NCBI GenBank assembly: GCA_951406725.2
Contig: OX597814.1
Location: 158,100,001-158,164,000, forward strand
Origin: Octopus vulgaris
Taxonomy: Eukaryota
Direction of reading: 5' to 3'
DNA: 64,000 bases
The notes under the pieces are model-generated. The model did no database searches and was not told where the DNA came from. It saw nothing but the letters and a program-made list of their open reading frames with translations. Both the position numbers and the translations under genes were made by a program. Shown here piece by piece: positions 803 to 60,765 of this stretch. Every line of letters begins with the position of its first letter. The first letter of the stretch is position 1.

Positions 803-976
803 CTGAATGTCCTACATCAGCCGGCTACACTTACCACCCAAAATTTAGATTGTGTTTTCGAGTAAGTACAAGTAAAACAACATGGAATGACGCTGCAGAC
901 GAATGCAATAAGGATCGAGGACAACTTATCCACGCGGAAAATAAAGAAATAATGGAGTATATACAGAAGGAATTGG
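803..976 (+). CDS. C-type lectin gene copy A, exon 2 (N-terminal half of CTLD); exon 1 lies upstream of the window
   Basis: Acceptor ttctaaag| and donor G|gtgagt, 174 nt, phase 1-1. Translates ECPTSAGYTYHPKFRLCFRVSTSKTTWNDAADECNKDRGQLIHAENKEIMEYIQKEL. Paralogous to 53872-54045. Not in the ORF track. Confidence 0.9.
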
Positions 977-1125: not shown

Positions 1126-2048
1126 TCAAACGAAAATGTACGCAAGATGTATCTAATATCAAACTATAAATGTTTAATGACATTCTTAATTTAAATTTTC
1201 ACAACTAAAACTCGCAGATATAATTCCGACTTTGGTCTAACCTTTTTTCATTTGTACTCTCTACTCTGATTGTTTCGTTTACGTTGAGAAAATACATAGG
1301 CTTTTGATAAACTACTGAATTTAATCATTTAATTCACACATAAATTGTTAAAGAATTATAGTATACTAGCAGTATAGCTCGGCTTTTCTCGGGATTAAGT
1401 TAGTATTATTAAGCTAATCAAGCTGTTTATTTCCAACCAAACTAACATCGACGTCAAATTTGAGCGAAATCCGTTGAAATTGGTAAACTTTTGGCTGAAA
1501 ATGAGTTACAGACAATTTGATTGGGAAATCCCATAAGCAATCGGTTTATCGGTTTTTGCCACTCATCGATTTTTGTTTTTTTGTTTTTGGAGAACTTAAA
1601 GCATTCGAAGATCCAATGAATCCTAAGTAATGCTGGCATCAAGTTTGAACAAAATACATGAAAATGGGGTATAGCCAATTTTATTGGGAAATCCTCTAAG
1701 GAATCGGTTTATCGATTTTTTTTTATCCTGATTAAATGGAAAACCCCATAAGGAATCAGTATATTGATTTTTTACCCCAAATAGAATTATATTTATACTT
1801 TAAATTTGGTTTTCACACCCAACACAGTTCTGCATAATCAGTGTCGCGACGAGAGCGCATGGGTTGGGAGTTTGATCGGCAGAGGTGATCGGGTTGCACA
1901 TACCAGCCTTTTTACCCCCCCCCCCCCAATCGAAGTCCCCTTTGACCATGGGTTGGAAACCCTTCCAGGAAGTAAAATAGAATGCCCAAAAGGGCTCCCG
2001 ATCCTCTGTGTCAGAAGCGGTTATGTTCAGATCACAACGAAGCCTTAA

Positions 2049-2082
<34 letters not shown>

Positions 2083-2170
2083 AGGAAAAATTTTTTTAAA
2101 AATGCAGAATGCTCAAATGAAAGAAAATTTTAATAAAATGAGAAAATGATAAAATATATAAATATATATT

Positions 2171-2211
2171 TATTCAACCGGTTTTCGTCATTGTATGACT
2201 TGTCAAGAATA
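2171..2211 (-). ncRNA. Minimal type I hammerhead ribozyme motif (U3-A8 variant), left arm
   Basis: Exact reverse complement of 5510-5550. Confidence 0.7.
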
Positions 2212-2843
2212 TTTATGTTTTAAGAAGTTTTTTTAAAAATTAGAAAGGGGAAAAAAAGAAAATTGCATTGTTTTTTGTAAAAGAATAATGATAAAAATGT
2301 ACAAAAATTGAAAAATAAGTTCTCCGATACATTGTGAGTTCGTTGTGTATCTTGAGTTTTATGGTTGTTTACCAAAAAATTACCTTGAGGTGTTAAGATC
2401 CAAAGGGATTAAGAGCATGCGATGTGTTGTGTTGTTAAATTCAGCATGTTGCAGGACAGGAAGTAGTAGTAATTGTGGTCCTGGTTCTTCAGTTCCTGTG
2501 TTGTGAGTAAGGGGAGACAACTCTTTTGAGTTCTTCAATAAAACCCAAATTATAAAACTATCATTTTAGCTTCATTTGCATTATCTTTTTTATATAATTG
2601 CTTGTTAACTTAACTTTCAGATTTTAACACTTTATTTATATTATTTTCTAATAATATAAATATGCATAGACAATTGCATTTCAAATTGTCATATCATTTA
2701 TAATAAAAATGATAGTAATAACAACAATAGTAAAAATGATATTTAAAGAATATAAGTTTTAGCTTGAAGTGATGAATGCATGGTATCTTTATATATTTGT
2801 GTTAGTCCATCCATGAAGAGTGAGGTAGAGAAAGGAAGTTTGA

Positions 2844-3859
2844 TCAACGAGGAGTTTGCATATTAAGTTGTGTTTGGAATTTTTCAATAAAGAGATTCTC
2901 CTTGTTAATTCTCTCCTGTGTGGTGATCCCGTCTTTACATTGGTAGAAGGGGAATATATAGAATTTGGGGTTTAAGTCTTTAGCACATGAGTCTAAGTGG
3001 TCACTCAGTGGAATTTGTCGGTATTCCGGGAGATTTATTTGTTCTTTATGCACCGTTACTCGTTTACGTAACGGGAGACTCGTTTGTCCAACATAATTAT
3101 GTTGGCAACCAGCGCATGTGAGAGCGTAGATAAGGTTCTCGGAGGAACAGGAGAAGTTAGTCTTGATTTTAAACTTCGTACCTTGTTTGAAGGTAAATTC
3201 AGAGCCTTCAAGTAGAAAGGAGCAGGTACCACAGTTTGAGCGTGCACATTTTTTTACTGTTGGGGGTGGATGTGGTGTGTGAAGTTTGGCATTTGTCAAT
3301 AGTTTTTTTAAAGATTTGTGTTGCCTTTTGCATTTGAGGATTTTGTGTGTATTTATAATGTTTTTCATTTTTGGGTCTGTTGACAGTAGACTGAGGTTTT
3401 GTATGATTGTGGTGTATGCTTCGATATTTTTGGGGTTGTGGGTGGAAATGTATGGAAGTATTTTGAGGTTGTGTGTGGTGTTAGGTTGGGTGGTTTTCAG
3501 TGTAGTGTTGTCTAGTTCTTTGGCGCGTTTTATTCCATACTCTATAAGGGTGGAGGGATATTGACGTTGTAATAGTGTTTTTTGAGGTCTTGAAGGCGTA
3601 TTTCTCGTGTTTTTGGATCCGAGACAATGGTGCATACCCTTTTAGCTAAATTGAAAGGGATATTTGTCTTGGTGTGTTTTGGGTGGCATGAACTAAAGAG
3701 GAGGTATTGTTGTGAGTCTGTAGGTTTGTGGTAGATGTCTGTTATGATTTGGTTCTTAGGTGTTTTTATAATTAGGAGATCAAGGAATGGGAGATGATGT
3801 TTGCTTAATTCCATAGTGAATTGGATGTTGGGATGTATGTTGTTTAGTATGGTTTTGAA
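2844..3859 (-). pseudogene. PLE RT-thumb/GIY-YIG fragment, left arm, frameshifted
   Basis: Mirror of 3861-4877. One A is missing in a homopolymer near 3580, splitting it into ORFs 3542-3919 and 2844-3635. Confidence 0.9.
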
Positions 3860-3860
3860 A

Positions 3861-4877
3861 TTCAAAACCATACTAAACAACATACATCCCAACATCCAAT
3901 TCACTATGGAATTAAGCAAACATCATCTCCCATTCCTTGATCTCCTAATTATAAAAACACCTAAGAACCAAATCATAACAGACATCTACCACAAACCTAC
4001 AGACTCACAACAATACCTCCTCTTTAGTTCATGCCACCCAAAACACACCAAGACAAATATCCCTTTCAATTTAGCTAAAAGGGTATGCACCATTGTCTCG
4101 GATCCAAAAACACGAGAAATACGCCTTCAAGACCTCAAAAAAACACTATTACAACGTCAATATCCCTCCACCCTTATAGAGTATGGAATAAAACGCGCCA
4201 AAGAACTAGACAACACTACACTGAAAACCACCCAACCTAACACCACACACAACCTCAAAATACTTCCATACATTTCCACCCACAACCCCAAAAATATCGA
4301 AGCATACACCACAATCATACAAAACCTCAGTCTACTGTCAACAGACCCAAAAATGAAAAACATTATAAATACACACAAAATCCTCAAATGCAAGAGGCAA
4401 CGCAAATCTTTAAAAAAACTATTGACAAATGCCAAACTTCACACACCACATCCACCCCCAACAGTAAAAAAATGTGCACGCTCAAACTGTGGTACCTGCC
4501 CCTTTCTACTTGAAGGCTCTGAATTTACCTTCAAACAAGGTACGAAGTTTAAAATCAAGACTAACTTCTCCTGTTCCTCCGAGAACCTTATCTACGTTCT
4601 CACATGCGCTGGTTGCCAACATAATTATGTTGGACAAACGAGTCTCCCGTTACGTAAACGAGTAACGGTGCATAAAGAACAAATAAATCTCCCGGAATAC
4701 CGACAAATTCCACTGAGTGACCACTTAGACTCATGTGCTAAAGACTTAAACCCCAAATTCTATATATTCCCCTTCTACCAATGTAAAGACGGGATCACCA
4801 CACAGGAGAGAATTAACAAGGAGAATCTCTTTATTGAAAAATTCCAAACACAACTTAATATGCAAACTCCTCGTTGA
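3861..4877 (+). pseudogene. PLE polyprotein C-terminal part (RT thumb, Cys-rich linker, GIY-YIG endonuclease); open frame but 5'-truncated
   Basis: IQFTME..LPFLDLLI..TDIYHKPTDSQQYLLFSSCHP (PLE RT C-terminus), CARSNCGTC linker, LIYVLTCAGC..YVGQT..LRKRVTVH (GIY-YIG). The upstream RT core motifs are absent. Confidence 0.9.
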
Positions 4878-5509
4878 TCAAACTTCCTTTCTCTACCTCA
4901 CTCTTCATGGATGGACTAACACAAATATATAAAGATACCATGCATTCATCACTTCAAGCTAAAACTTATATTCTTTAAATATCATTTTTACTATTGTTGT
5001 TATTACTATCATTTTTATTATAAATGATATGACAATTTGAAATGCAATTGTCTATGCATATTTATATTATTAGAAAATAATATAAATAAAGTGTTAAAAT
5101 CTGAAAGTTAAGTTAACAAGCAATTATATAAAAAAGATAATGCAAATGAAGCTAAAATGATAGTTTTATAATTTGGGTTTTATTGAAGAACTCAAAAGAG
5201 TTGTCTCCCCTTACTCACAACACAGGAACTGAAGAACCGGGACCACAATTACTACTACTTCCTGTCCTGCAACATGCTGAATTTAACAACACAACACATC
5301 ACATGCTCTTAATCCCTTTGGATCTTAACACCTCAAGGTAATTTTTTGGTAAACAACCATAAAACTCAAGATACACAACGAACTCACAATGTATCGGAGA
5401 ACTTATTTTTCAATTTTTGTACATTTTTATTATTATTCTTTTACAAAAAACAATGCAATTTTCTTTTTTTCCCCTTTCTAATTTTTAAAAAAACTTCTTA
5501 AAACATAAA

Positions 5510-5550
5510 TATTCTTGACAAGTCATACAATGACGAAAACCGGTTGAATA
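5510..5550 (+). ncRNA. Minimal type I hammerhead ribozyme motif (U3-A8 variant) in the PLE 3' pseudo-LTR
   Basis: TATTC [TTGACAA] GTCAT-aca-ATGAC [GAAA] ACCGG T T GAATA: 5-bp stem I, 5-bp stem II, palindromic AACCGGTT stem III region. Confidence 0.72.
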
Positions 5551-5687
5551 AATATATATTTATATATTTTATCATTTTCTCATTTTATTAAAATTTTCTT
5601 TCATTTGAGCATTCTGCATTTTTAAAAAATTTTTTCCTTACTTATCATTTCTCCACGTGCGGTCAACACAACCCCACCATTTATTGA

Positions 5688-5765
<78 letters not shown>

Positions 5766-6055
5766 AGTATGGGCAACACACACACAAACATACACACACA
5801 TACGTACACCTACTGCATACATGTTTTTGTATGCATACATGTTCGTGTGTGTGTTTGTGTGTGACTGAAGCCATTCACTCATACATACATAACAATCCCT
5901 CTCTCTCTCTCTCTGTCTTCACACACACTATCAAAACAACTCATACACACTACACTTTCTGTGCTGCACACCGCATATGTGTGTGTGCGTGCGTGTTTGA
6001 TGGGGTGTGCAATACAGAAAGTGTAGTGCGTATGAGTTGTTTTGTTAGTGTGTGT

Positions 6056-6105
<50 letters not shown>

Positions 6106-7144
6106 GATAACAGATTTTTTATTTCGTTTTTAGTGATTGATTGACAGACAAAAAGAGAGGGAGTGAGAGAGGAGATGTTATGTATATATTTATGTGTAAA
6201 TGGCTTCAGTCACACATACACACGAACATGTATGCGTACAAAAGACAGGTACGCAATAGGTGTACGTGCGTGTGTGTGTGTGTTGCCCGTATATCAACAA
6301 AACACTTTTTTCTTCGATGGATAAAAAACAAGTCTTAGCAAAAACTTACTCGTCGCTCATATTTGTAAACAATGTTGAATTTCTCCGAGTTTAAAATTGT
6401 TTAAAGTTTTCGTTGAACATTTATTTTTACCGCTATTCGCTGGTGCCTCTGGGGAAAATAAGTTGACGAAATTACAGCTAGGATCAAGACGAATGTCCTC
6501 CTAAAATTAGAGCGACATTCGTGCTAATTTGTGGAGTACATAAATTACATTCACGTACGCACACGCACGCACACATCCTGCCTTATATATACAGATTATA
6601 TTATCATTTATTTTCAATGCATTAGAAAGGAGAATCTGTTGCCCGTTAAAATTATGTTCTGCGTATTATACCTAAAAATCTGAATTGATATTGAAACAAA
6701 GGAAATATTTTGTGATATATCTTATTCGTTTACATTGTTTGAGATTTTAACAAATTTAATATCAGTTTAATCAACGTTTAAATATTCAGAAATATCATTT
6801 AGACTAGGCCCTTTTCAATATTAAAAGGCGGCAACTGTATTACTTCGAATTTGGTATTTGTCCTACCTTCTAAGAGCACGTTAGTGACAATGTGAATATA
6901 TTATCAACGAATAAATTTTGATTTTGGATTTAATCAATACGCTGATTCTTATTGTAGAACTCTAGAGTCGATTAAATTGCTCAACGATCTCATGAGTCAT
7001 TCTGTGTAATTCCAATAAGATGAAAGTCTATATCCGTTTGTTTTAAATTTATATGTAAACAGAGGTAATAAATAATTTACCTGCTATAATGGTTAGATCA
7101 GCACCCTTCATTTGCCAATAATTTACTCCTTATTTTTTTGTATG

Positions 7145-10168: not shown

Positions 10169-10401
10169 AAAAGTGGCCAAAGGAAAACTTTTATTTTGGA
10201 TTGTGTAAAGACATGAAGAAAGACGTCTTTCTATGGCAGAATGGAGAAGAACCTACTTATGATTTCTGGATGGAGGATAGACCTAGTGGTGGTGATCAGC
10301 ACTGTGGACTTTTAGACCACAGAAGTAATCACAGATGGAATGATGATCCTTGCGACAGGCAAGTCGGTAGGAGATATATATGCGAGATAGTCATGCGATA
10401 A
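10169..10401 (+). CDS. C-type lectin gene copy A, terminal exon 3 (C-terminal half of CTLD)
   Basis: Acceptor tttttcag|, phase 1. FGLC..FLWQNG..FW..RPS..QHC..WNDDPC..YICE then TAA. Confidence 0.9.
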
Positions 10402-16219: not shown

Positions 16220-16261
<42 letters not shown>

Positions 16262-16267
<6 letters not shown>

Positions 16268-16430
16268 CATGCTTTAAATAAAAGCAGCAGAAATATAACA
16301 AAAGCTGTTACTTAGAGTTTCACATTCCCGTTCGTAAAATGGAACAGAAATAACGATAAAGCATATTACTCTATCTCTGGTATTTGAGTACTCTTTTTTC
16401 CACCTTGTTTCGTATTTATGTGCGTACTCC

Positions 16431-16482
<52 letters not shown>

Positions 16483-16851
16483 AATGGTTGTGTGGTAAGT
16501 AAGTTTCTTACTAACCAGATAGTTCTGGGTTCAGTCCCATTGCATGGCACCTTGGGCAAATGTCCTCTACTATAACCTCTATATGTATGTATGTATGTAT
16601 ACATATACATATGTAACATGTGCACACACACATATATATATATACACATATATACATTCATATGAATATTTATACATATACACATATTAATACCTTAATA
16701 TATATAAGGTGGAAAAAAGAGTACTCAAATACCAGAGATAGAGTAATATGCTTTATCTTTATTTCTGTTCCATTTTACGAACGGGAACGTGAAACTCTAA
16801 GTAACAGCTTTTGTTATATTTCTGATGCTTTTATTTAAAGCATGTTCATAT
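16262..16851. repeat. Inverted duplication (arms about 16262-16406 and 16706-16851) of a rearranged PLE pseudo-LTR fragment
   Basis: The arms are near-identical reverse complements. The sequence is related to 17794-17855 and 19910-19986. Confidence 0.8.
16481..16580 (+). mobile_element. tRNA-derived SINE head, truncated duplicate
   Basis: A-box-like tggttgtgtggtaag and B-box-like gggttcagtccc; near-identical to 16950-17050. Confidence 0.7.
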
Positions 16852-16949
16852 ATAAAATTATATAGAACAAAATTAAATATACGATAAAACATTTACCTAT
16901 AATTAAGTAAAGTACAAAATAATAAATAAATAGTATATATATATATATA

Positions 16950-17172: not shown

Positions 17173-17408
17173 GAATGTATATATATATATATATATGTAT
17201 ATTTGAGTAGAAAAATGAAATATCTTTTTATGGATAATTCGTTTAACCGATACCTGTGTAGCAAATTCACATCAGAAATAACACGGTTGAAGTTACGTGC
17301 CTAGGGCAGAGACTACGTGTTTTCGTGTGGAAATTTGTGTCTAGTTTTATAAAATTTATGAATAAATGAAAGAATGGAGTTGAACGACAAATTAACAAAT
17401 TTCCTTTA

Positions 17409-17491
17409 TTTTCGACATATGTTTCGAAGGCAGCATATTCCTAATTGTGAATGAATAAGGAGTACATTATGCCGCTTTCTCATCAGGAAAA
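17409..17491 (-). ncRNA. Canonical type I hammerhead ribozyme with extended stem II (left arm)
   Basis: Reverse complement of 17584-17666, with one substitution in loop II. Confidence 0.88.
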
Positions 17492-17583
17492 ACAAGGAAT
17501 TTATGTCAACATCAAGATTCCCAAAAACTTTTAGATGACTGCTGTCACGGAGCAGAATCTTGATGTTGACATAAATTCCTTGT

Positions 17584-17666
17584 TTTTCCTGATGAGAAAG
17601 CGGCATAATGTACTCCTTATTCCTTCACAATTAGGAATATGCTGCCTTCGAAACATATGTCGAAAA
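17584..17666 (+). ncRNA. Canonical type I hammerhead ribozyme with extended stem II (right arm)
   Basis: TTTTC [CTGATGA] GAAAGCGGCATA ... TATGCTGCCTTC [GAAA] CATATG [TC] GAAAA. GUC cleavage triplet after 17661; palindromic ACATATGT stem III. Confidence 0.9.
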
Positions 17667-17733
17667 TAAAGGAAATTTGTTAATTTGCCGTTCAACTCCA
17701 TTCTTTCATTTATTCATAAATTTTATAAAAATA

Positions 17734-17794
<61 letters not shown>

Positions 17795-17826
17795 TTTATT
17801 TAAAGCAGCAGAAAATTCAACAATAT

Positions 17827-17864
17827 CTGTTACTCTGAGTTTCTCGTTGCCGTTCATCAGACAG
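17827..17864 (-). ncRNA. Minimal type I hammerhead ribozyme
   Basis: Minus strand: CTGT [CTGATGA] ACG-gcaa-CGA [GAAA] CTCAGAG [TA] ACAG. GUA triplet; weak stem II. Confidence 0.75.
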
Positions 17865-19099
17865 TTTTTGCTAGAATGGAACTGATATATCAATTCAATC
17901 CAGACTCTTACAAACGCTACACCTTTAAAAAAAATGGACTTGTTTGATTGGCTCTTTAGAAATAACGGTCAATCCTCGAGCGATAAACAAAAAAATGAGC
18001 TCAAAAATATATGTATATATATATTAAAAAATTAGAAAAATTAGAAAAATTATAAAATTCGAGGAAAAAACCTTACATTGAATAAAATACATATTGACGT
18101 TAATGAAGGAAATATAATTAATGCATGGAAATTAAAAGCATTATAAATATTACACTGCAATACATATTCATATTAAAGTGTACATATATATATCAACATA
18201 CACAGAAGGATGCGTGCAAACGCCATACATATACAGACGTATAAATATAAATCTAAAATATACACACAAATGCATGCATACATATATGTACGCAATCTGT
18301 CTCGCACGCAAGTTAAAATCATCGATGCTAATGTAGCGTTTCTTATTTACGGAGTAAAGCTTAAGTAATGGGGACGCAAAGTTGTATGTACCAGTATCAG
18401 TTAGAGAAAAAAACGAAAGAAAGGAAGAGAGAGAAAAAGGAACGAAGAAGGGGGAAGGAAAAAATAAAAGGAGGGGAGGGGTAAAAACGAAATAAGAAAA
18501 ATTAAGTATACAAGCTGTGTAACCGCGTTATTGACATATATAGAGACAAGTATAAAAATACACAAGTTCGAATGGATACATACACATACACTCGCGTATG
18601 TGTGTGCTTAAGCACAAACATACGCTCACTTACACAGACACAGAGACGTATGCTTACAAATACATATCCATGGCTATACACATATTTACATCAAAATTCT
18701 AATTTTTGACAACATTGCTTTTTAAAAAAGGTGAGTGCAATAATGAAAAATATACGAAAGACATATAAAAATATAACACCCTATGTTGGATCATCTATAA
18801 ATTAAAAATCAAGGTAATCCTATACAATACAATAACATGAAATAAACAAAGCCGAAGGTTTTTCCTAATGTATATGTAGAAATATAAACAAAATAAACAA
18901 AATATATGCATGAGACTTTGCTATACGGAATGAAATCTGCATAGCGCGTAACAAATCCATCGTCGCGTTTACATACTAGTCCAAGAGTCAAAATCAATAT
19001 TTCAAAAATACAAAATATATACTCTATCTATATGGTATATTTATATTTGACATTTTAAATTTGGTTGCGTGCCTACATAAGTTCATTAGCTCACTTCTT

Positions 19100-19680
19100 T
19101 GATTCAAAGAATTATTGTCTTTGAATAAAATATACAGTTTCTCTAATAGGCAAAGCTTGCATTAAAAATTATTTCTGTGTGCTCCATGCCTGTATGGTGC
19201 CGCTCTGTCCAGAATGCTCCATGTCACGTTGAAAGGTGGGGTTTCCTTTCCTTTTAGTTCCCAGACATATTTTGCTAGGCTGGTCCTCTTCCTATTCTCT
19301 GGGTATCTAAATGAATTTTTATGTGAATAAAATCGTGTTTTAAATGAATTTTCTGAAGCCCCTGTATATGTCTTGTATTCCGATGAGCCTTCTATTTGCA
19401 CCTTGGCTCTATAAACTACTCCTTTAACTAGACATTTCCCTTCTAACGGACACGAGTTTTCGTTTTTGAAATTGCATTTCTTAATGGGCTCGGCACCATG
19501 TCTAATCTCAATCAGATTCCTATTATGCTGGCTAATGTAAGAGGCGAAATTTCTGCAACAAGAATAGCTAACCTTCAGGGTTCTTCTATTAAATATCCTA
19601 TAGAATTTATGGCCCTGCTTAAAATGCTTAGAGACTAATCTCAAAAATTCCTTACCTATATTAGTCTTTACGGCCAAATT
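19100..19680 (-). pseudogene. PLE GIY-YIG endonuclease fragment
   Basis: CPLEGKCLVKGVVYRAKV..TYTGASENSFKTRFYSHKNSF..SLAKYVWELK; CKLCLLEK continues in frame after the stop. Confidence 0.85.
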
Positions 19681-19844
19681 GAAAGCCCATTCGTTTTTTC
19701 TCTAACTGATAATGGTACATACAACTTTACGTCCCCCTTACTTAAGCTTTACTCCGTAAATAAGAAACGCCACATTAGCATCGATGATTTTAACTTGCGT
19801 GCGAGATAGATTGCGTACATATATCGGTTCCATTTTAGCAAAAA

Positions 19845-19882
19845 TTGTCTGATGAACGGCAACGAGAAACTCAGAGTAACAG
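19845..19882 (+). ncRNA. Minimal type I hammerhead ribozyme (inverted copy)
   Basis: TTGT [CTGATGA] ACG-gcaa-CGA [GAAA] CTCAGAG [TA] ACAG. Confidence 0.75.
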
Positions 19883-20071
19883 ATATTGTTAAATTTTCTG
19901 CTGCTTTAAATAAAGCATATTTCTCTACCACTGGTATTTGAGTACTATTTTTTCCACCTTGTTTCACATTTATGTGTTTACTCCGGTATATATATATATA
20001 TACGTTACCTATTATGCGTATATATATCAAGTTTATATTTCTGTGCGTGCGCATGTGTTCATGCATGTATG

Positions 20072-20204: not shown

Positions 20205-20720
20205 ATACTGGGAGGATAGAGACGGAACGAAGTGAAAATTCGAAAAGTCGAAAATTCGAACGAACCCGACGCGAGCGTTGTCAGACAATAGTGTAATAAA
20301 TAAAATATATGCATACATACAAACATATATGTACGTACCGACATCTACATGTATATATACATGCATATATAAATATATAGACGTACAGGACACCACAAAA
20401 AGTCGTAAAACTCAACAGAAACGAAAACGGAAAAGCCGTTTTGTTACAACAGACGAACGAGAACGAAAACAGGAAAAACATTAAGTACAACAGAAAAACG
20501 AGGTACAGGAGATGCTACACAAGGAAAAATCCCCTTCATCAGCTGTCACTAGCAGACATAGCGTGTTTCGAAGGCAAGACAGGACACGTCTGGTCATGCT
20601 AGGCCTTCCTACGAGAGAATTAAAATAAAATAATCTCGCAGAGGGGTAAAACAAGCAAGAAAAAATGTAACACAAAAAGGGACGTAACAAAGAACTGCAC
20701 AATAAAATACAAGAACAAAA
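20205..20720 (-). repeat. Interspersed repeat, same family as about 63430-64000 in the opposite orientation
   Basis: aggccttcctacgagagaattaaaataaaa (20601) is approximately the reverse complement of attttattttaattctctcgcaggaaggcc (63961). The class is not determined. Confidence 0.55.
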
Positions 20721-20724
20721 TACC

Positions 20725-23700
20725 AGTATTCAACCCAAGAATAACAATGGAGCGGTACGTACTTTAAACTTACAACAAAAAATGTACGGAAAGCTACACG
20801 TGCGAAATAATGTGACAACAGAAATGAACGGACCGATACCCTACGAAAATGACGACCGTCAAAATAATGGGCCGGGCGTTGTTCCTCATGTCCCGCAAAT
20901 AAAACCCAAAAGACATAAATGGACACGTGAGGAATACATTTCTATCTTACACGCATACTTCACAGCAGTGCTCTACCAAAAAAATGAAAAGACAACAACA
21001 CATACATATAAAATATGGAAGGAAAATAACATAAATATAGACTTGGATATAGCAATGAACCCTAATAAATTAGCTAACGTACGAAGATACATTCTCAAAG
21101 CAAAAGAAATATCAGAAATAGAAATAGAACATCTAAAAGAAACAATACACAAGGAAAATGTAGATAGAAGCCACACAACAATACCCAATAATATAAACAC
21201 TGAAATAGTAAAACACGAAGACAAACGAAACATTCCCAACAAACACGATGTAAACAACGAAGGGGAGCCTAATGATTATGATAATATAAAAAGTAAAATA
21301 ATCAAAGAACTGAAAACCACAGAGCTCAAAATGGCCCACCGACCATACCTCCCAAGAATCAAAATAGACGAAACAACAACACCAATTATAAACAGCATAA
21401 ACCTAACCGTCACTGAACTAATAGCCACTGAAACAAAAAGCGACATCACTGAGCTAAATGACTTAGTATACGCAGCAGCCACTGCAGCCACAGAAGAAGC
21501 TGGATACTCACTCAAACCCATCCAAACAGGAGTACCAACACCCAAACAAACCCTGTGGATAAATAACATCCAAAACAAAATACAAAAAATGAGAAAAGAT
21601 CTGTCGATTCTTAATGAAATCAGCAGACAATCAACGCTACTGAGCAACAAAAAGAAAACAAAAATACTCCGCAAATATAACATCACAGAAAAAGATTTAC
21701 CTGAGATAAAAGAAAAGCTGAAGCAAGATATCCTTGCCAAAGCACAAAGAATCCGCCGGTACGAGAACCGCCAGCGCTTCTTTGAACAAAACAAAAAGTT
21801 CAACTCCAGCCCCAAAAAGTTCTACCAAGAACTTGGCAAAAATAAAATAGAAATCACTGCAGCACCAACGGCAGAAGAAGTGGAAGAATTCTGGAGAGAA
21901 ATATGGTCGGCGAACGAACAACCAAAAGAAAGGAGTATCAAAATGACAAACTCGGCATCTGAACAACTTTGGATCACCATAACAACTGAAGAGGTCACCC
22001 AGGCACTGCAAAGACTAAGCAACTGGAAGGCACCTGGGCATGACAAGATCCCCAAATTCTGGTTGAAATATCTAACAGGAATGCACAAAAAGCTGGCTGA
22101 AAACTTTAACAACATGCTAGCAGAGCCAGAGACAATGCCTGAATGGCTCACGAAGGGGAAAACCATCTTAATTCCCAAATCAAATGAGACAGCAAAACCA
22201 GAAAACTACAGACCAATAACCTGTCTCCTTACAATGTTCAAGGCATTTACTGCAGTGATATCGCAAAGGTTGAACAAGCACCTGGACGAAAACAAACTGT
22301 TCCCAGAAGAGCAGAAAGGATGCCGCAAAGGCTCATATGGCTGTAAAGATCAACTAATGATTAATAAAGCCATAACTGAAGACAGCCACAGAAAGAAGAA
22401 AGGCCTCAGTATGGCCTGGATCGACTACAAAAAGGCGTTTGATAGCATCCCCCACACATGGATCCTCGAAACACTAGCCATTAACAAAGTAGCACCAACA
22501 ATCATAAAATTCATAGGGCACTCTATGAATAAATGGCAAACAGTCCTACACCTCCAAACAAAAGAGGGACTCATGAAAACCAAAGACATCCCCATTAGAA
22601 AAGGAATATTCCAAGGAGACACGCTCTCTCCACTCCTTTTCTGCTTGGCACTGTCACCCCTATATGATTTGCTAAATAGAACTAGATGTGGATATAAATG
22701 TTACGACAAAACGATCAGCCACCTTTTATATATGGATGACCTAAAACTATACGCTGCAAATGACAACAGCTGGAAACACTATTAAAGGCTGTTCATGGAT
22801 TTACCAAAGAAATTTGGATTAGAAAAATGCGCCAAAGTAACCATGAAAAGAGGAAAACTAGTGAAGAGTAGCAGCATCACACTAGATAAAACCAATGAAA
22901 TAAAAGAATTAGACCAAAGCCAAACTTACAAATACTTAGGAATCCATGAACTAGATAAGACACAACACACACAAATGAAAGAGAAAATAAAAAAAAGAAT
23001 ATTATAGACGAGTTAGATCAATACTAAAAACAGAGCTCAATGCTAAAAACAAGATAATAGGTATTAACACTTTAGCTGTCCCAGTTATAAGTTACAGCTA
23101 CAATATCCTTAACTGGACACTAAATGAACTGACCAAAAAAGATAGGAAAACAAGAAAAATAATGTCAGAATCTAGGATGCCTCACCCAAACTCTGACATA
23201 GAAAGAATATACATACAACGTATAGAAGGTGGTAGAGGCCTTATACAACTGGAAAACTACTATAAAATAACCACCATAGGATTGCAAAAATATCTACTTC
23301 AGAAGGAAGAAAAACTGATACAAATAGCGGCAAAACACGAGCAAAACAAAAAATTGTTGTCAGTATTTAAGGAAGCTGACAAATAAAAACAAGAAATCAT
23401 ACCACCTAATAAATATGAAGAAGAAGAAGAAGATGAAGAAACAACAAAAGCTATAAAACAAATGAAATCCAAACTAAAAATCGAACAGCAACGAACCATG
23501 ATAAAACGATGGCAAGAAAAGCGCCTTCATGGTAAATACTGCACTAAACTAAACGCAAAAGAAATAGACAAAGAAAAATCTCAGCAATGGTTGAGAAGCT
23601 CAGGACTCAAAGCAGAAACAGAGGGATTTTTAATTGCAGCACAAGACCAAAGCCTCCTCAACAGAAATTACCCAAAACATGTAATGAAAAGAAATATAAC

Positions 23701-24374
23701 AAGTAACTGCAGAATATGTGGAGATGGACAAGAAACAATAAATCATATTATCTCTAGCTGCCCAGTCCTGGCTAAGAAGGAATATATTCACAGACATGAC
23801 AGAGTTGGAACCTACATACACTGGAAGCTATGCCAACATTATGGAATAACAACAGAAGAAAGATGGTATAGGCACACACCAGAAAATGTCACAGAAAACG
23901 AGAAAGCAGCCATACTCTGGGATATGCCGATACACACAGATAGAGAAATTAAGGCCAACAGACCAGATATAGTTGTCAAAGATCATGAAGAAAAAAATGC
24001 TTTCTAATTGATGTATCAATACCGGCTGATGACAACGTGTCTCTAAAAGAAATGGAGAAACTCTCAAAATACAAAGACCTGGAAATAGAGGTAGCCAGAA
24101 TGTGAAATCTAAAGACAGAAACAATTCCTATCATAGTAGGTGCATTAGGCATGATAAAAAAATATTCAGACAAATACATAACAAAAACACCAGGACTTAC
24201 AAACACATATAACATACAGAAAATTGCACTCACTAGGCACTGCACACATCCTACGCAGAACACTTTCCATACAATAACCATCAGAGCATCACAACAAATC
24301 ACAGCACATACCCAAGGCACACAGAGCTGCGCTCGGTAGTAAAGTGATAGCACGCTATAAAAATAAAACTACTG

Positions 24375-24376
<2 letters not shown>
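20725..24376 (+). mobile_element. Near full-length Dong/R4-like non-LTR retrotransposon (RT + CCHC + REL endonuclease), disrupted
   Basis: KAPGHD, YRPITCL, IDYKKAFDS, GIFQGDTLSP, YMDD; CRICG..ETINHIISSC, RHD, RPDIV. Frameshifts or stops near 22770, 22990, 23385, 24000 and 24103. (TAA)n tail. Confidence 0.93.
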
Positions 24377-24597
<221 letters not shown>

Positions 24598-25601: not shown

Positions 25602-26526
25602 CTACGAAGAAATTAAATGCCACCGATACTATTCTACCCAAGAATAACAATCGAGCGGTACGTACATTAAACTTACAATAAAAAATGTACGAAAAACTAC
25701 ACGTGCAAAATAATGTGACAACAGAAATAAACGGACCGGTACCCTACGAAAATGACGACCGTCAAAATAATGGGCCGGACGTTGTACCTCATGTCCCGCA
25801 AATAAAACCCAAAAGACGTAAATGGACACGTGAGGAATACATTTCTATCTTACACGCATACTTCACAGCAATGCTCTACCCAAAAAATGAAAATACAACA
25901 ACACATACATATAAAATATGGAAGGAAAATAATAGAGATATAGACTTGGATACAGCAATGAACCCTAATAAATTAGCTAAAGTACGAAGATACATTCTCA
26001 AAGCCAAAAAAATATCAGAAATAGAAATAGAACATTTAAAAGAAAAAATACACCAGGAAAATGTAGATAGAAGCCACACAACAATGCCCAATAATATAAT
26101 TAAGGCCAACAGACCAGATATAGTTGTCAGAGATCATGAAGAAAAAAATGCTTTCTAATTGATGTATCAATACCGGCAGATGACAACGTGTCTCTAAAAG
26201 AAATGGAGAAACTCTCAAAATACAAAGACCTGGAAATAGAGGTAACCAGAATGTGGAATCTGAAAACAGAAACAATTCCTATCATAGTAGGTGCATTAGG
26301 CATGATAAAAAAATATTCAGACAAATACATAACAAAAACACCAGGACTTACAAACACATATAACATACAGAAAATTGCACTACTAGGCACTGCACACATC
26401 CTACGCAGAACACTTTCCATACAATAACCATCAGAGCATCACAACAAATCACAGCACATACCCAAGGCACACAGAGCTGCGCTCAGTAGTGAAGTGAAAG
26501 CACCCTATAAAAAAAAACTACTGAAT
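25600..26526 (+). mobile_element. Internally deleted non-autonomous derivative of the 20725-24376 element
   Basis: 25630-26098 matches 20727-21195; 26099-26526 matches about 23948-24376. (TAA)n on both sides. Confidence 0.93.
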
Positions 26527-26554
26527 AATAATTATCATAATAATAATAATAATA

Positions 26555-26593
<39 letters not shown>

Positions 26594-26599
26594 ATAATC

Positions 26600-31950: not shown

Positions 31951-34653
31951 ATGTAACGTATGTGCTCGGGTAATAGTCGATTTCATGTAAAATGCGACCC
32001 CTTATTTTGGCACAAAACTTGAGAATTTTCCATAGATCCCGTATAAAAGTCGACACTAATATTTCACGAAGAACAGGACAATATTTGTAGATTAAGGTAC
32101 CGTATTGTCCTATAAATAGAAATAACACTGTTACACGTTTGTGTGGCTGCCTTAGTGTAGCCTGCTCTATACGTGGGATACTTGGTGCTTATAGTAAAAC
32201 ACCATTTAATAGCGAGCACTTCATATCTGCTGATTGGTGCCACAATGTATGCACAGGATATGCTGGAAGCCTGCACACATCTTCATGGCTAATAATCACA
32301 TGCGTCATACACTCGTTGTTTACATGGTGAGAAACGTGTTTCACAGACAGCACTATTGGCGAACACTAGCAAACACCTCTATCAGAATTCGTGCAAAGGC
32401 ATGATTTTTCGTAAGCATAAAAGTATTCAATTAATCGCTAGATCAGTGGTTCTCATGCGACCTTTATATTTTTCTCATATCCAAATACATTTAACATATG
32501 CGTCATACGCCCGTCTGTTTACTTGGTGAAAAATGTGTTTCCCAGACTATCGGTGAACGACAGCAACCACCACTACATGAATTCGTACAGTGATATGACT
32601 TCGGTAACCCTAAAAACATTAAAGGAACTCTGGGGTTTAACAGAACACACTTTGGGTATTTCTACTCCAGATTAACAACTCTACAACATATTATGGACAT
32701 TTACTGGTAATTGCACATGACATCCTGTAGCTGTTTTTTTTTTTTTTCATTTCTGTAGGGGACAATATATACACATAACACGACACCCTGTTAGTCATAT
32801 AAAAATCGAATGGCGAACGTATTCCGCGAAATGGCAACTGATCGTGAGCATGGATACGATAGCCCCTAGGCCGAAATGTATTAACGTTAAATTAATACTG
32901 TAAGTTTCACATTGATCTATTTTTTAATTACAGCTCTTGTTTCATGGCATAATATAATTTGTACCGGTACTCCTTTCAGCTTTAACGCAGGATTCAATTT
33001 GCCGTGCAGTTTAGGTACTTGAAAATCGTCAATGTGTGTTGCTCGTGAAGCCACCTTAATGCTCGAAATGAATAAAAATAGGATGGAATTTCAAATTTTA
33101 AAGCGAATGTTGGATGGTGAGATGTTATGGCATAGTGTATCAGCTGAGAACTAAGATCGCACAAAAGCTGCGTACTGATCTAAATGATAAGATAATAGCG
33201 TTTCATAGGTTTGTAATCAGAAATCAGCTGAAAGAGTATGTGCATTATCATGTATTGGGAACATGGACGAAACGCCTGTTACTCTTGACATGCCAGAGAA
33301 TCGAACTGTGAATCAAAAAGGAGAAAAAGCAGTATTCATCATAACCACCGGCCAGGAGAAAAGGTTACTTTAGTTCTTTCATGTATGGCCGATGGTAATA
33401 AATTAAACCGATGGTTGTTTTTAAGAGAAAAACTGTGCCGAAGGAGATATTTCCAAAAAGAATTATCATCCATGTGCATCCACAAGGATGGATAGAAGAT
33501 GAGGGTCGTTGTAGAAAATGGATTAAAGATGTTTGGAATTTACGACCTGGTGGAATGCATTGGATGGTACAGAAGACGATTGTCTATGGGATGACAAGGA
33601 TAACGAAGTGGATGATGCTCTACCTCTAAATATGGACAGCGAAGATGATGATGAAGAGAATCCTTACGATGATGCCATTCATCCTCATGATTAGGAAGCT
33701 TTATTCAGTGCTGAAGATGATAAACTGTGATAAATAAATTGGTACTGTAGTCTCTAATCTAGCCACGAAAAAGAAAACGTTTTCGGTGGAAACTTGCTGG
33801 TGGAAAGTGATATTGTGCTTCTACTTCATTTATCAGTTCTGGTATTTAATACATTAAATTGCATTTAGTTAATTAGAAATAAAAAGGCACCACTATTATA
33901 CTGTACTTGTGATGTGTGTGACTTTAACCATGAATATGAAAATAGCATAATTTATTGAAGAGGTATGAAGTGAAACACGCCGAGTAGATATCAGCTGTAT
34001 GCATCGTATTCCGGTAGGTAGCAACATGCCCAGTACCGGTGATAATATAACATAATTATGAGATATAAATTGATTTCACTCTGCTAGTTTGCTAGTCTGT
34101 TTGATGCATAAAATTAATATTACTGTAATTCATTTTGTTTTTATTCGCTTAGAGATCAGGTGGGATTCTGCTTCTGGTACTTGGGATTCTAGCTTGAATT
34201 CCAGCCCCTCAAAAGTAGTGTTCATGTAATAGACGACCCCATAAACTTGACCTTAAAAGATTGTTTAAAATATTCGACTTTCTCACGAGTATATACGGTA
34301 TTCCGTCTCAATCACATCATTCGACAAGCTAATCTTCACGTAATTACTTTCCCAGTGTTTTTATTCCAAATAGGCTTGGACAGTAATGTAGCTTGTAGAG
34401 AATATTATGGGACTCGTGTTCCACATCCTGTTACCGTTATTCCAGAAGCTGACAGATTAATTCAGATGTAAAATAGCCGATCAGAAATAGAGTTCTTTTC
34501 TCTTTGTGTGACATATTCTGAATGAGTTATGATTATATGCAGTGTTTCCAACGATGTATGTATCGTTCGTAAAATCAAGCTATTACCTGTTGCTTCATCA
34601 TTCATTGACATTCCTGCAAACAATGTGTATTCCATGCTACAAGCTCTTGAGTA
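31951..34653 (+). pseudogene. PAN-CTL gene copy B: exon 1 pseudogene
   Basis: ATGTA at 31951-31955 plus 34301-34653 aligns with 48721-49081. In-frame stops (34469 TAA, 34524 TGA) and a mutated donor (c|ttgagt). Flanks 31545-31950 and 34654-35780 match copy C's flanks. No exon 2 or 3 seen. Confidence 0.88.
31956..34298 (+). mobile_element. pogo/Tigger-like DNA transposon, decayed
   Basis: TA duplication (31954-55, 34299-300); imperfect TIRs acgtatgtgctcggg / cacgagtatatacgg. IGNMDETPV..DMP..TTGQEK..CMADGNKLKPMVVFK at about 33255-33430. Confidence 0.82.
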
Positions 34654-36599
34654 GTATTCTTTTCAAGAGAATGTATTCCATATATTGCTACTGTGTTAGC
34701 CATTGTTACACCCTGTTCTAGAAAAACCTATATTCAAAGGCGTTCGAGCTGATTCCGTAGTATAAAGTGTCCTTAGTGAAGACGATATCCGTTGTTTGAG
34801 AGAAATTTGACTTTTATTTCCAGCAGGACACATGACTACGTAAACGTCCTCACATTGGATCATATTGCATATATTGTTGAAGAATAACTATTCTACAAGT
34901 CGTTTAATCTGTAATGATCTTAGTTTAAACTAATGCATCATGGTCTTATAAGTAATCCAGTCTTTTTGCTTTTATCTAAAACAGTAAGACGTTTATTTGA
35001 AGGCCATTTGGCTGTTATTTCTAGGATATCTTGTAACCACAGAGACGCTACCTTTTGGTTCGTATTGCACAAGTGTGTTTTGTAGAGGATGGAGCTTTCG
35101 TTGTATATTTAGTTGTATATTTAATATACACGTGTGTTTCGATAGTTTTATCATATCAGATCACACGTATGGATAGATAAGATATGTCCTCTAGTGATAT
35201 AAAAATATTACACCTTATCATCAAATATCACAAAAAATATTTGTTCCAGAAGGCGTCTCACTAACCAACGTATTAAATTGTGGTCTCTCACATTATGCCT
35301 ATTCGAAAAGATTCTAGGGTTGTACAAAATAATGTGTCTTTAAATAAAATTTAATAAAAGTATGTAAGAATTGCTATTCATAATTGTTCAAATAGCATGT
35401 TATTACAAATTTTGTATTGGAATGAGATACTGATCGAAAATAATTTTTGCTTCATTCTATGTTTTAATAACATAGAATATAGGTATGATGAATACGATTT
35501 TTTGGAAATATCGTATACAGCTTCCACGGCAAAATAAGTTTGAGGACCATTGTATGAGATACCTTCCATGTCTCCTTGTAAAACAACTAATAATAGCATC
35601 TGTAATCAAAGCTCTGAACGCCTATACATACGTAAGCATTTTGTAATTGTTGATTTGAGGAATAGTAGCGTATTGCTTGCCTTTTATCCTTTAAGTTTTC
35701 CTTATTTGTAGAGCTCCCATGATCGCAGCTGCACAGTAATATAACTATGTTTTTGACATTTATTTCCATATATTACTTTCAGTACGTTTTACGTTGCTCC
35801 TAAAATTATATGACGTTGTTGTTGCTGTTGGGGATGAGATTCACTTTGATCGAGACATTTCCGCCGTAATTATCACGTCTTGTTTACAGTACTCTACTAA
35901 ACATATTATTTAATGAGTTCCTTGCCTATTATGAGCGTGTGATTTCAGGGCGTTTTGACTGATCCTTGAAAAAGATCGAACGGCAAGAGAGAAATTTCAC
36001 ATCAGTGTGTTTCCGCAAATTTTATGATTAATAACTTCTCCCGTAATTTTTTTGCTTAGCCCTATGCTATGGTAGGAAACACACTTTAGCTCATCATACA
36101 GTGAGATTAAACCTGGAACAACGTGGTTACTAAGTTGACGTCTTTACACAACCATGACTGCACTCCATTATAATTCTATTCTAATCAATATAGATAGCAT
36201 AGTGTTCCTACATAAGTACTTAATTTGGTCACTTATTATAATATTTTTGTTGTTTGTCTCTTCAACCTTCATGCATAGTCATCTCACATAGTTTCGTTCT
36301 ACTTTCCATTTTCATCACAAACGTTCACACTCATACCTTTATTAGATTTCTTTAATGAAATACCTTTTCTGCTATTGTATCTTGAAATTCGTGGAAATCG
36401 AGAACAGTTATGATTTAATATTTAATATTTCGGTTGATTGATTATCCAAATGTTGTCCCACAGTCTTCTGAATACTTTTCATCTTTCATTTTTAAAGTCT
36501 CTTATAATTTGTTTTCTTTGAATTAATTTTTTTTTACTTAGCAACACATTTTTTTCTAATTTGTAGCAACAATAAGAAGGCATGAATTCTGAGCTGCAT

Positions 36600-48720: not shown

Positions 48721-49075
48721 ATGTATTCCTTCTCAGTCGGGCACGTCATTCGAAAAGCAAATCTTCACGTACTTACTATCCTAGTGCTATTATTGCAGAT
48801 GTACTTGGTGGGTAGCGTGAGTTCCAGAGAATATTATGGGATTCGTATTAATCCTTCTGTAACTGGCATTCCAGAAGAAGACAAATTGAATAAGATGTCA
48901 AACATCCGATCACGTATTGAGTGCTTTTCTTTCTGTATGACAAATTCCAAATGTGGTATGATTATTTACAGTGTTTCCGAGAAAGTATGTATCCTACGTA
49001 AAATCAAGCAACTACCTGGTGCCCCATCATTCATCGACATTCCTCCAAACAGTATTTACACCATGCTTCAAGCCC
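48721..49075 (+). CDS. PAN-CTL gene copy C, exon 1: signal peptide + PAN/apple-like domain
   Basis: ATG; hydrophobic LHVLTILVLLLQMYLVGSVSS; SRIECFSFCMTNSKCGMIIYSVSEKVCIL (C-x3-C-x5-C-x11-C). Donor C|gtgagt, phase 1. Confidence 0.85.
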
Positions 49076-53871: not shown

Positions 53872-54045
53872 CTGAATGTCCAACGTCAGACAGCTACACT
53901 TATCAACCAGAATTTAGATTATGTTATCAAATAAATTCAAATAAAATGTCATGGAATAACGCTGCAGACGATTGCAATGAGAAACGAGGACAACTTATTC
54001 ACATTAGAAATTTAGAAGTAATGCTCTATCTACAAGAAAAATTGA
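53872..54045 (+). CDS. PAN-CTL gene copy C, exon 2
   Basis: Acceptor cctaaag|, donor A|gtgagt, 174 nt, phase 1-1. ECPTSDSYTYQPEFRLCYQINSNKMSWNNAADDCNEKRGQLIHI. Confidence 0.9.
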
Positions 54046-54434
54046 GTGAGTAACAGTTTGTTATTTTATACACACACTCCCGCACACATAACACGCTCTC
54101 ACGCGCTTTCTTTCTCTCTTCCTCTCATTAAAAACATACACAAACACGCGCACGCGCACGCGTACACACGAGCGCAAATGTACTCAAGATATATCAAATT
54201 TCAGAAACTATAACTGTTCAATGAAATTCTTGATTTAAATTTTCTGCTATTTGGCAAATTACATTCCGTTTTTCTTGCAATTATTTTCTTTTATTTGTAC
54301 TTTCTACTCTGATTATTTATTTAGTGACTAGAAAATACACCAACTTTTGATAAAATATCGAATGTAGTCACTAATTTCGTACATATTTTTAAAAGAATTA
54401 TATTATACTATCATTTATTCTCAATGCGTTACAA

Positions 54435-57117
<2,683 letters not shown>

Positions 57118-59962: not shown

Positions 59963-60301
59963 AACGTTAATAAATTTCTAAAGATGTACTTTGCATTCAG
60001 CTTGAAAAGCACTTATATCATAAATATGTGATCAGCTTTCATATTATTCATAACCTTATACTGTAGAATCACGTTGCAAATTTTCCTAGGAGAAAGAAAT
60101 ATCAATTTTGATGGAAATTTTACAGCTAGTCAATGAGCGATAGTAACTTTCTTTTATTGCATATCGTAATGGCTGTAAACGATATCGAATATTTGGATTA
60201 CAAAAGCAAAGTTGTAAACGCAAAAATCATTATCTTTCTTCTCATAAAGAAAATCTATTCCTTCTTAAGCCTTTCATTATGATCATCTGTTTTAAAAACA
60301 A

Positions 60302-60765
60302 CTAGCAGTATAACACGGCTTTGACCGGGATTAAGTAAGGATTATTAAGCAAATTAAGATCTTTATTTCAAACCAAACTAAGTAGCATCTACGTCAAATT
60401 TGTGGGAAATTGGTTTATATATATATGGGCAACACAAACACATACACACGCATACGTGCGTACACCTATTGCATACAAGTTTTTTGCACACATACATGTT
60501 CGTGTGTGTGTTTGTGTGTGTGCGTTGCCCGTATATCAATAAAACACCTTTTTCGTCGACGGAAAAATAACATAAGTCTTAACAAAACTTACTCGTCGCT
60601 AGAAGGGGACTTAACTCCTGTTTGCAAACAATTGTGATTTCTCCGACTTGAAAATTGTTAAAAGTTTTGGTTGAAAATTTATTTTTTACTGCTATTCACT
60701 GGTGCCTGGTAAAAATAAGTTGACGAAAATACAGCTAGGATCTGGACGAATATTCTCCTGAAATG
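60302..60765 (-). mobile_element. Short Helitron-like element of the 1366-6595 family
   Basis: ctagcagtata..cggcttt..cgggattaagt start; matches 1366-1470, about 5770-5860 and 6270-6505. Confidence 0.72.

What the first reader, a model, noticed from the sequence alone, without database searches (positions are those of the whole stretch)
2079..5642. 3.56-kb palindrome with a 1-nt spacer inside a lectin intron
Seen: arms of about 1.78 kb pivot at A3860 (ttttgaa-a-ttcaaaa). By eye I found only 7 transitions and a 1-nt indel. The inversion includes about 1 kb of coding sequence, not just the pseudo-LTR. Known: long spacer-less palindromes are unstable, long dsRNA is an ADAR/Dicer substrate, and coleoids edit RNA heavily. 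Inference: it formed by cDNA snap-back self-priming during PLE integration, and the copy A pre-mRNA would form a 1.8-kb hairpin that could yield siRNAs against this PLE family.
Basis: partly seen in the sequence, partly recalled or inferred. Interest (0 to 1): 0.78.

Follow-up and report, generated by a model that had tools for sequence, protein, structure and literature searches.

The report
Head-to-head Penelope retrotransposon palindrome
Two truncated copies of one Penelope-like retrotransposon sit head to head in an octopus lectin intron, a known insertion form that likely arose when the element's new DNA copy folded back at a short internal palindrome; the RNA hairpin it would make in the host transcript is predicted, not shown.

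Summary
The palindrome is in the sequence. Arms 2079-3859 and 3861-5642 differ by 7 transitions, 1 transversion and 1 single-base indel. It is a head-to-head pair of 5'-truncated Penelope-like elements (RT end, thumb, CxxxxCxxC linker, GIY-YIG with CCHH; Neptune/Nematis type). It lies between two (TA)n runs and has a 47-nt tail on one end only. Inverted 5'-truncated copy, one-sided tail and (TA)n target are published PLE features; self-priming, siRNAs from inverted Penelope copies and hyper-editing of Penelope are also in print. New detail: family contigs show the native element reads GAATTC at the pivot. The '1-nt spacer' is therefore native sequence, and the join is a 1-nt overlap inside a 6-bp palindrome. 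Both arms share minor family alleles (one template), yet each carries private, CpG-biased changes, and a paralogous intron shows the flanks adjacent. An artefact is unlikely (about 10%) but not excluded: no displayed contig bridges the pivot. Snap-back priming is my best mechanism; priming from both strands is a close rival. Host expression and hairpin RNA were not shown. Verdict: real and ordinary for PLEs, a clean specimen.

The parts
2052..2079 (.). (TA)14, left half of the microsatellite target; last A shared with the arm
   Evidence: sequence
2079..3859 (-). Left arm: inverted 5'-truncated PLE copy without tail; ORF remnant 3859-2844 with a 1-nt deletion (frameshift) at 3577-3583
   Evidence: family contigs carry the extra T (table 4)
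3857..3863 (.). Pivot GAA-A-TTC; native element reads GAATTC here, so the arms join with a 1-nt overlap (A3859), one base off the centre of the native 6-bp palindrome
   Evidence: loose ends at 3859 in runs X2, X3, X9 (table 7); their reading (..L-L-E-F-K) fits homologues P0002/P0003
3861..5642 (+). Right arm: 5'-truncated PLE copy, same sense as the host gene
3861..4877 (+). ORF remnant, 338 aa: RT from just after YxDD, thumb, CX4CxxC linker (C205, C210, C213), GIY-YIG endonuclease with CCHH (C249, C252, H271, H288)
   Evidence: Pfam GIY-YIG E=5e-4, below the curated cut-off; 66 longer RT+GIY-YIG homologues, best 60% identity, E=2e-118; alignment A1
5510..5550 (+). Minimal hammerhead-like motif in the pLTR (UUGACAA core variant, 5-bp stem II, GAAA, palindromic stem III); activity untested
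   Evidence: own motif scan: 4 hits in 64 kb, 2 of them here and in the mirror arm; same pattern in 8 of 83 related loci, all on the sense strand, 2 with the UUGANAA core; no Rfam hammerhead hit
2171..2211 (-). Mirror copy of the hammerhead-like motif
5643..5689 (+). 47-nt AC-rich 'tail' present on the right arm only
   Evidence: fold no better than shuffles, z=-0.95
5690..5761 (.). (TA)36, right half of the microsatellite target
   Evidence: sequence
803..976 (+). Host C-type lectin exon upstream of the insertion
   Evidence: Lectin_C E=0.003; 63% to P0068; splice sites
10169..10401 (+). Host C-type lectin last exon
   Evidence: Lectin_C E=1e-8; 100% identity over 87% of the query to P0067, named Octopus vulgaris
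60301..60520 (+). Paralogous intron site where homologues of the left flank (1365-1470, 83%) and right flank (5758-5863, 85%) lie side by side around a short (TA) run, without the PLE

Best explanation
This is a head-to-head pair of 5'-truncated Penelope-like retrotransposon copies between two (TA)n runs, likely made in one integration event in which the truncated cDNA folded back at the element's own GAATTC and copied itself. Shown: PLE identity, (TA)n flanks, tail on one end, native GAATTC at the pivot, arms that share minor family alleles. Inferred steps: (1) the GIY-YIG endonuclease nicked (TA)n and RT began at the tail end (5689); (2) RT stopped just 3' of the YxDD codons; (3) the cDNA 3' end primed on itself, with a one-base slip or off-centre pairing; (4) the copy ran back 1.78 kb, stopped at the second pLTR boundary 47 nt short of the start, and joined the other (TA)n end; (5) the arms then drifted apart by 8 substitutions, roughly 0.6 My (0.27-1.2) if these are real mutations. 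The structure is a selfish by-product without a dedicated function. If the lectin gene is transcribed, its intron would form a 1.8-kb duplex open to ADAR or Dicer. Confidence that it is a genuine PLE inverted insertion: about 0.88; the figure below is for the snap-back step.
For: Anatomy matches the published PLE form: inverted 5'-truncated copy immediately adjacent, 30-40 bp tail at one end, (TA)n preference (PMC8557442); self-priming inferred from palindromes at inverted junctions (PMC3846280). The two arms are truncated within 2 nt of each other, at a native 6-bp palindrome (table 7). Only 1.3% of ORF positions centre such a palindrome (about 4% allowing one base of offset; one case only). 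Of 15 variable sites displayed inside the element, 13 are identical in both arms. These include 2310 and 3300, where 97.7-100% of contig depth in all 4 runs carries the other letter: one template. Each arm has private changes: left 3124, 3221 and the 3577 deletion; right 5431, inferred from one X9 contig with a single difference over 2180-2351. 7 of 8 substitutions are transitions (P=0.003) and 3 of 8 are at CpG (P=0.002). The flanks are adjacent around a TA run in the paralogue. A related copy in L081 also has a 1-nt-centred inversion at its RT truncation point.
Against: A hairpin needs a loop of several bases (4-6 unpaired central bases, PMC7999016). GAATTC offers only about one closing pair, and the product as assembled needs a 1-nt loop or a later +1 change, so snap-back is sterically awkward. 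Snap-back alone does not explain why the copy stops before the tail. No displayed contig bridges the pivot and no strand-change joint was among the 15 of 21 joints shown. 38 variant rows were not shown, so 4 of the 7 transitions (2420, 2482, 3319, 3327) are not polarised by data. Shared alleles could also come from later gene conversion between arms. Noisy long-read consensus errors can mimic transitions; I did not determine how the window was sequenced.
Confidence: 0.5

Rival explanations
1. Priming from both strands: a dimeric PLE protein nicks both strands of (TA)n and starts two cDNAs, one at the tail end (5689) and one at the inner start site (5642). Both run to the same point of one RNA (or two RNAs of one source locus) and their 3' ends pair in trans at GAATTC.
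For: In vitro, the anole PLE cleaves and extends both strands, is predicted to be a dimer, and starts RT at two sites that bracket the tail (PMC11167929). This explains the one-sided tail directly, and pairing in trans has no loop constraint. Shared minor alleles fit a single source.
Against: Both cDNAs must end at, or be trimmed to, the same place; the join is off-centre by one base; the in vitro work is on another clade (Poseidon) and shows no joined product.
Confidence: 0.3
2. Sequencing or assembly fold-back artefact (a read turning back on its own complement inside a single PLE copy).
For: No independent record shown bridging the pivot or the left junction (the tool skipped 2043-2179). 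The arms share rare alleles, as one molecule read twice would. The junction-spanning ORF is not in the protein collection (0 of 4 start variants).
Against: The palindrome stops exactly at a pLTR boundary with a one-sided tail and different flanks; a read fold-back would carry on into the flank. Flanks are adjacent in the paralogue. Differences are mostly CpG-biased transitions on both arms. The laid runs differ from the window by 4 letters + 1 gap in 142 nt (X1) and 5 + 1 in 245 nt (X3) in the unique flank, so they are probably other individuals, species or paralogues and cannot test this allele.
Confidence: 0.1
3. A single truncated copy inserted first; the inverted arm was added later by host break repair (fold-back at GAATTC with return to the flank) or rebuilt by gene conversion.
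For: Inverted repeats of 5-9 bp can seed large palindromic duplications in yeast mutants (PMC7999016). A possible 5-nt match (GTAAG) between the left arm end and the right flank start is visible in the sequence.
Against: The inverted copy ends at the element's own boundary and duplicates no host DNA; the same form recurs across PLE clades.
Confidence: 0.07
4. A domesticated hairpin-RNA locus kept by selection to silence this PLE family or to tune lectin splicing.
For: siRNAs match inverted regions of rearranged Penelope copies in flies (PMC3681739). Gene model P0067 at this locus joins the PAN exon straight to exon 10169, leaving out exon 803-976 that the O. bimaculoides model P0068 keeps. 5 of 7 transitions stay G-U pairs on the host sense strand.
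Against: Absent from the paralogue; young; arms decaying like neutral DNA; 5 of 7 wobble pairs is within chance; P0067 is a prediction that also runs into a downstream pseudo-exon.
Confidence: 0.03

Closest known systems
EN+ Penelope-like elements, Neptune/Nematis type, inverted insertion form (Craig et al. 2021, PMC8557442; passages seen)
   Same: C-terminal GIY-YIG with CCHH, CX2-5CxxC linker, 5' truncation, inverted truncated copy adjacent at the 5' end, tail at one end, (TA)n target, HHR-like motif in the pLTR
   Different: Tail is 47 nt rather than 30-40; no direct upstream pLTR, so the whole insertion is one palindrome; Neptune versus Nematis not resolved
Adineta vaga Penelope Pen2/Pen3 inverted structures (PMC3846280; passages seen)
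   Same: Head-to-head inverted copies with palindromes at the junction, read as self-priming; inverted halves that include ORF parts
   Different: There the inverted parts are mostly about 200-bp pLTRs with 15-38 bp palindromes; here 1.78-kb arms meet at a 6-bp palindrome. That paper places self-priming on an antisense template RNA; I place it on the (antisense) cDNA
Rearranged Drosophila virilis Penelope copies with long inverted repeats (PMC3681739; passages seen)
   Same: Long inverted repeats within the element body; siRNAs map to the inverted regions
   Different: Penelope/Poseidon clade, transgenic invasion; small RNAs measured there, not here
Poseidon of Anolis (PAc) in vitro (PMC11167929; parts 1-2 of 4 read)
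   Same: AT-rich target, AC-rich tail defined by two RT start sites, HHR in the pLTR
   Different: Different clade; inverted products not reconstituted; the tail here shows no significant fold

Membership tests
EN+ Penelope-like element | PLE-type RT followed by C-terminal GIY-YIG in one ORF | tested here: met
   338-aa remnant aligns over 95-99% of its length to the C-terminal part of 659-772 aa RT+GIY-YIG proteins at 55-60% identity (top 4 hits); RT core itself is truncated
EN+ Penelope-like element | CCHH motif with two Cys between GIY and YIG | tested here: met
   IYVLTCAGCQHNYVG, H271, H288; C249, C252, H271 invariant in A1 (definition)
EN+ Penelope-like element | Hammerhead ribozyme motif in the pLTR | tested here: inconclusive
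   Variant core motif at 5510-5550, paralleled in relatives L011 and L018; no Rfam hammerhead match; core consensus recalled; cleavage untested
EN+ Penelope-like element | Inverted 5'-truncated copy adjacent at the 5' end and a tail at one end | tested here: met
   description
EN+ Penelope-like element | Insertion into AT-rich or (TA)n target | tested here: met
   (TA)14 and (TA)36 flanks; short TA run at the paralogous site; TSD length cannot be read inside a microsatellite
Neptune or Nematis clade | CX2-5CxxC linker upstream of GIY-YIG with C-terminal EN | tested here: met
   C205-x4-C210-x2-C213, invariant in 13 of 13 aligned sequences
Neptune (rather than Nematis) | RT phylogeny with named references | not tested
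   No named reference sequences were at hand and the RT core is missing
Penelope/Poseidon, Hydra, Naiad | No linker Zn finger (Poseidon); no CCHH (Hydra); N-terminal EN (Naiad) | tested here: not met
   Linker and CCHH present, EN C-terminal
Hairpin-RNA / endo-siRNA locus | Transcribed through both arms and processed to small RNAs or hyper-edited | not testable with these tools
   Only contigs were offered; no run on record as RNA
Foldback or TIR DNA transposon / MITE | Terminal inverted repeats of one element with transposase or fixed TSD | tested here: not met
   The arms are two retroelement 3' halves, asymmetric by the tail

The most novel reading that the evidence does not exclude
The palindrome is a fossil of two-strand priming by a dimeric PLE: two cDNAs started at the two RT start sites that bracket the tail and were joined in trans at the element's own GAATTC. 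High-copy octopus PLEs would then routinely seed kilobase, spacer-less palindromes that persist for hundreds of thousands of generations and feed the octopus's large pool of edited dsRNA. Pivot positions and arm alleles of the family's many copies would make the PLE integration mechanism readable from one long-read genome.
Probability: 0.25. Interest if true: 0.55.

Novelty: new member of a known kind. Interest (0 to 1): 0.27.

Why it matters
The form is known, so the single locus matters little. It is a clean specimen for two open points. First, how PLEs make inverted insertions is still undefined (PMC8557442), and pivot sequence, tail side and arm alleles can be read for every copy in a long-read assembly. 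Second, long spacer-less palindromes are expected to be unstable (PMC7999016), yet this one appears to have lasted long enough to gather 8 substitutions without a central deletion. Octopus has an unusually high share of near-perfect dsRNA-forming loci and hyper-editing (PMC5625713); intronic PLE palindromes are a candidate source.

Tried and rejected
No whole genome is held, so no genome-wide count of pivots. Run search: no RNA holder listed; 20 of 24 rows hold part of the stretch, and shares of 0.33-0.59 could be the element alone. Read laying (contigs only, 1150-3900): no displayed piece bridges the pivot (32 of 9065 pieces, 24 of 509 loose ends and 15 of 21 joints shown); 2043-2179 was skipped as repeat; the guessed-RNA run X9 has no cover over 1150-1333, which proves nothing. 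A>G counts are alike in X9 (13) and the other three runs (14-15), so there is no editing signal. Rfam: only chance miRNA-type hairpin hits below gathering score. Tail fold not significant. 83 related loci: 3 of 83 have an inverted repeat of 50 bp or more and none is kb-scale, but 80 are short metagenome contigs that would break at palindromes; the L019 and L024 repeats are not at an RT truncation. Test for antisense-derived N-termini: 0 of 46 near-length homologues (P0024 of the 47 hits left out), best 14 nt against 35 for the window control; uninformative because most start at internal Met. Exact look-up of the junction-spanning ORF: 0 of 4. Three look-ups of earlier findings returned nothing. 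Paper search 'Penelope' + 'twin priming' listed 3 papers, none on PLE mechanism by title, not read; 'Penelope', 'head-to-head', 'palindrome' listed 2; one instability search gave 0. The library lacks most subscription papers, so absence from print is not shown. Rejected: foldback/MITE origin; two different subfamily templates; an untemplated spacer base.

Full report
Observation. The palindrome is there at the stated coordinates. The arms are 1781 and 1782 nt around A3860 and differ at 9 places: 7 transitions, 1 transversion at a T/A run boundary and 1 indel that frameshifts the left arm. The symmetry ends at 2079/5642. The left arm abuts (TA)14; the right arm goes on for 47 nt and then meets (TA)36. 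It lies in a 9.2-kb intron between two C-type lectin exons. The last exon is 100% identical over 87% of its length to P0067, labelled Octopus vulgaris. The gene's first exon lies before the window, and expression was not shown.

What the arms are. The right arm opens with a 338-aa frame that matches the C-terminal part of RT + GIY-YIG proteins (66 hits, best 60%). It starts just after the YxDD motif and holds the thumb, a CX4CxxC linker and a CCHH-type GIY-YIG. By the definitions in PMC8557442 (passages) this is a C-terminal EN+ PLE of Neptune or Nematis type; I could not separate the two. 638 nt after the stop lies a minimal hammerhead-like motif with a UUGACAA core. The same pattern occurs in 8 of 83 related loci, always on the sense strand, twice with the UUGANAA variant. 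The consensus I scanned with is recalled, and Rfam gave no hammerhead hit. The two copies face head to head, 3' ends outward. The family is high-copy: summed contig depth is about 10^4-10^5 on the arm against about 60-180 on the unique flank in runs X1-X3, which the tool warns is no copy number.

The pivot. Loose ends of family contigs at 3859 in X2, X3 and X9 give the native upstream sequence (table 7). It reads ..L-L-E-F-K-T, as in homologues, with GAATTC across E-F. So A3859 and A3860 are native to the right arm, the left arm is native up to A3859, and the join is a 1-nt overlap one base off the centre of a native 6-bp palindrome. Such a palindrome centres on 1.3% of ORF positions; with one case this is suggestive only. 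A related copy in L081 has a 27-bp inversion with a 1-nt centre at its RT truncation point, followed by a further inverted piece. L081 is a contig filed under a bacterial MAG; I infer it is animal host DNA.

One template, then drift. Of the 15 variable sites displayed inside the element (38 rows of the table were not shown), 13 are the same in both arms. At 2310 and 3300 both arms carry a letter that 97.7-100% of contig depth lacks in all four runs. The arms thus share one source, or were homogenised. At 3124, 3221 and the 3577 indel the family agrees with the right arm; at 2290/5431 one X9 contig agrees with the left arm. Both arms therefore have private changes. These are biased to transitions (7 of 8, P=0.003) and CpG (3 of 8, P=0.002). 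With the calibration in PMC13282606 (JC 0.09 = 25 My; passages) the arms parted about 0.6 My ago (0.27-1.2). That holds only if the differences are mutations and not consensus errors.

Real or artefact. For real: the symmetry ends at an element landmark with a one-sided tail, the flanks differ, and in the paralogous intron the homologues of both flanks stand side by side around a short TA run (both flanks are themselves repeats, and that intron is partly rearranged). Against: nothing displayed bridges the pivot or the left junction. Those runs differ from the window by about 2.5-3.5% in the unique flank, so they probably do not carry this allele. I leave 10% for an artefact.

Mechanism. Target nicking and RT start at the tail end follow from PLE biochemistry (PMC11167929, parts 1-2 of 4 read). 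For the inversion I favour snap-back of the truncated cDNA at GAATTC (0.5): it explains equal truncation points and shared alleles, and self-priming was proposed for such junctions in PMC3846280 (passages). Its weak points are loop geometry and the stop before the tail. Priming on both strands from the two start sites, with pairing in trans at GAATTC (0.3), explains the one-sided tail and avoids the loop, and fits the in vitro finding that both strands are cut and extended. I found no paper proposing it for PLEs, within a limited library. Later host repair (0.07) and selected function (0.03) are minor.

RNA consequences. If transcribed, the intron would fold into a near-perfect 1.78-kb duplex with 5 G-U pairs, 2 A-C mismatches, 1 U-U and 1 bulge. 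No RNA evidence could be had. Precedent exists: siRNAs matching inverted Penelope regions in flies (PMC3681739, passages), and Penelope as a massively edited element in lizard, with octopus rich in near-perfect dsRNA loci (PMC5625713, passages).

Comparison and verdict. [quoted passage not shown] This window has another hammerhead-bearing head-to-head pair at 17342-17733. The finding is a new member of a known kind; what it adds is arm length, a resolved junction and apparent persistence. Other papers seen: PMC8969392 (passages), bioRxiv 10.64898/2026.07.22.740005 (passages), PMC7999016 (passages), PMC10636886 (listing only). No supplements were read; those of PMC8557442 and PMC3846280 may hold equally long inverted examples. 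Interest 0.27.

Noticed in passing
window 17342-17733: Second head-to-head pair: 179-nt arms, 98% complementary, 34-nt spacer, each with a canonical CUGAUGA..GAAA hammerhead-like motif pointing outward, right end at a (TA)n run; likely pLTRs of another PLE family.
   Followed up: partly
window 16248-16864 and 17789-20027: Further nested inverted pairs next to (TA)n runs, and a 179-aa frame at 19162-19701 (-) that looks like a GIY-YIG remnant by eye but has no Pfam hit.
   Followed up: partly
window 803-976, 10169-10368, 34367-34468: Gene model P0067 (Octopus vulgaris) joins the PAN exon directly to exon 10169, leaving out the open exon 803-976 that O. bimaculoides P0068 keeps, and then runs on into the broken PAN exon at 34367. 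Probably a prediction error; exon skipping not excluded.
   Followed up: partly
window 34298-34686, 48721-63022: Tandem PAN + C-type lectin (perlucin-like) paralogues: a complete-looking copy B and a PAN exon with stop codons at 34.3 kb.
   Followed up: partly
window 1334-2050: The left flank is itself high-copy repeat DNA; family contigs run into (TA)n at 1484, so the site has taken nested insertions.
   Followed up: no
window 20671-24400 and 25630-26598: Non-LTR retrotransposon with RT (Pfam RVT_1 E=2e-23), broken frame, ending in (AAT)n, with an internally deleted second copy at about 95% identity.
   Followed up: no
window 5758-6308 and 57327-58034: Older imperfect palindromes rich in CA/TG repeats, 70-83% identity between arms.
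   Followed up: no
window 2079-2084 and 5762-5767: GTAAG follows the TA run at both the left arm end and the right flank start; possible microhomology or chance.
   Followed up: no
L081 5866-5981; L082, L083: PLE copies inside long contigs filed under a Nitrospirales MAG, likely animal host DNA in the bin; L081 has a 1-nt-centred inversion at its RT truncation.
   Followed up: partly
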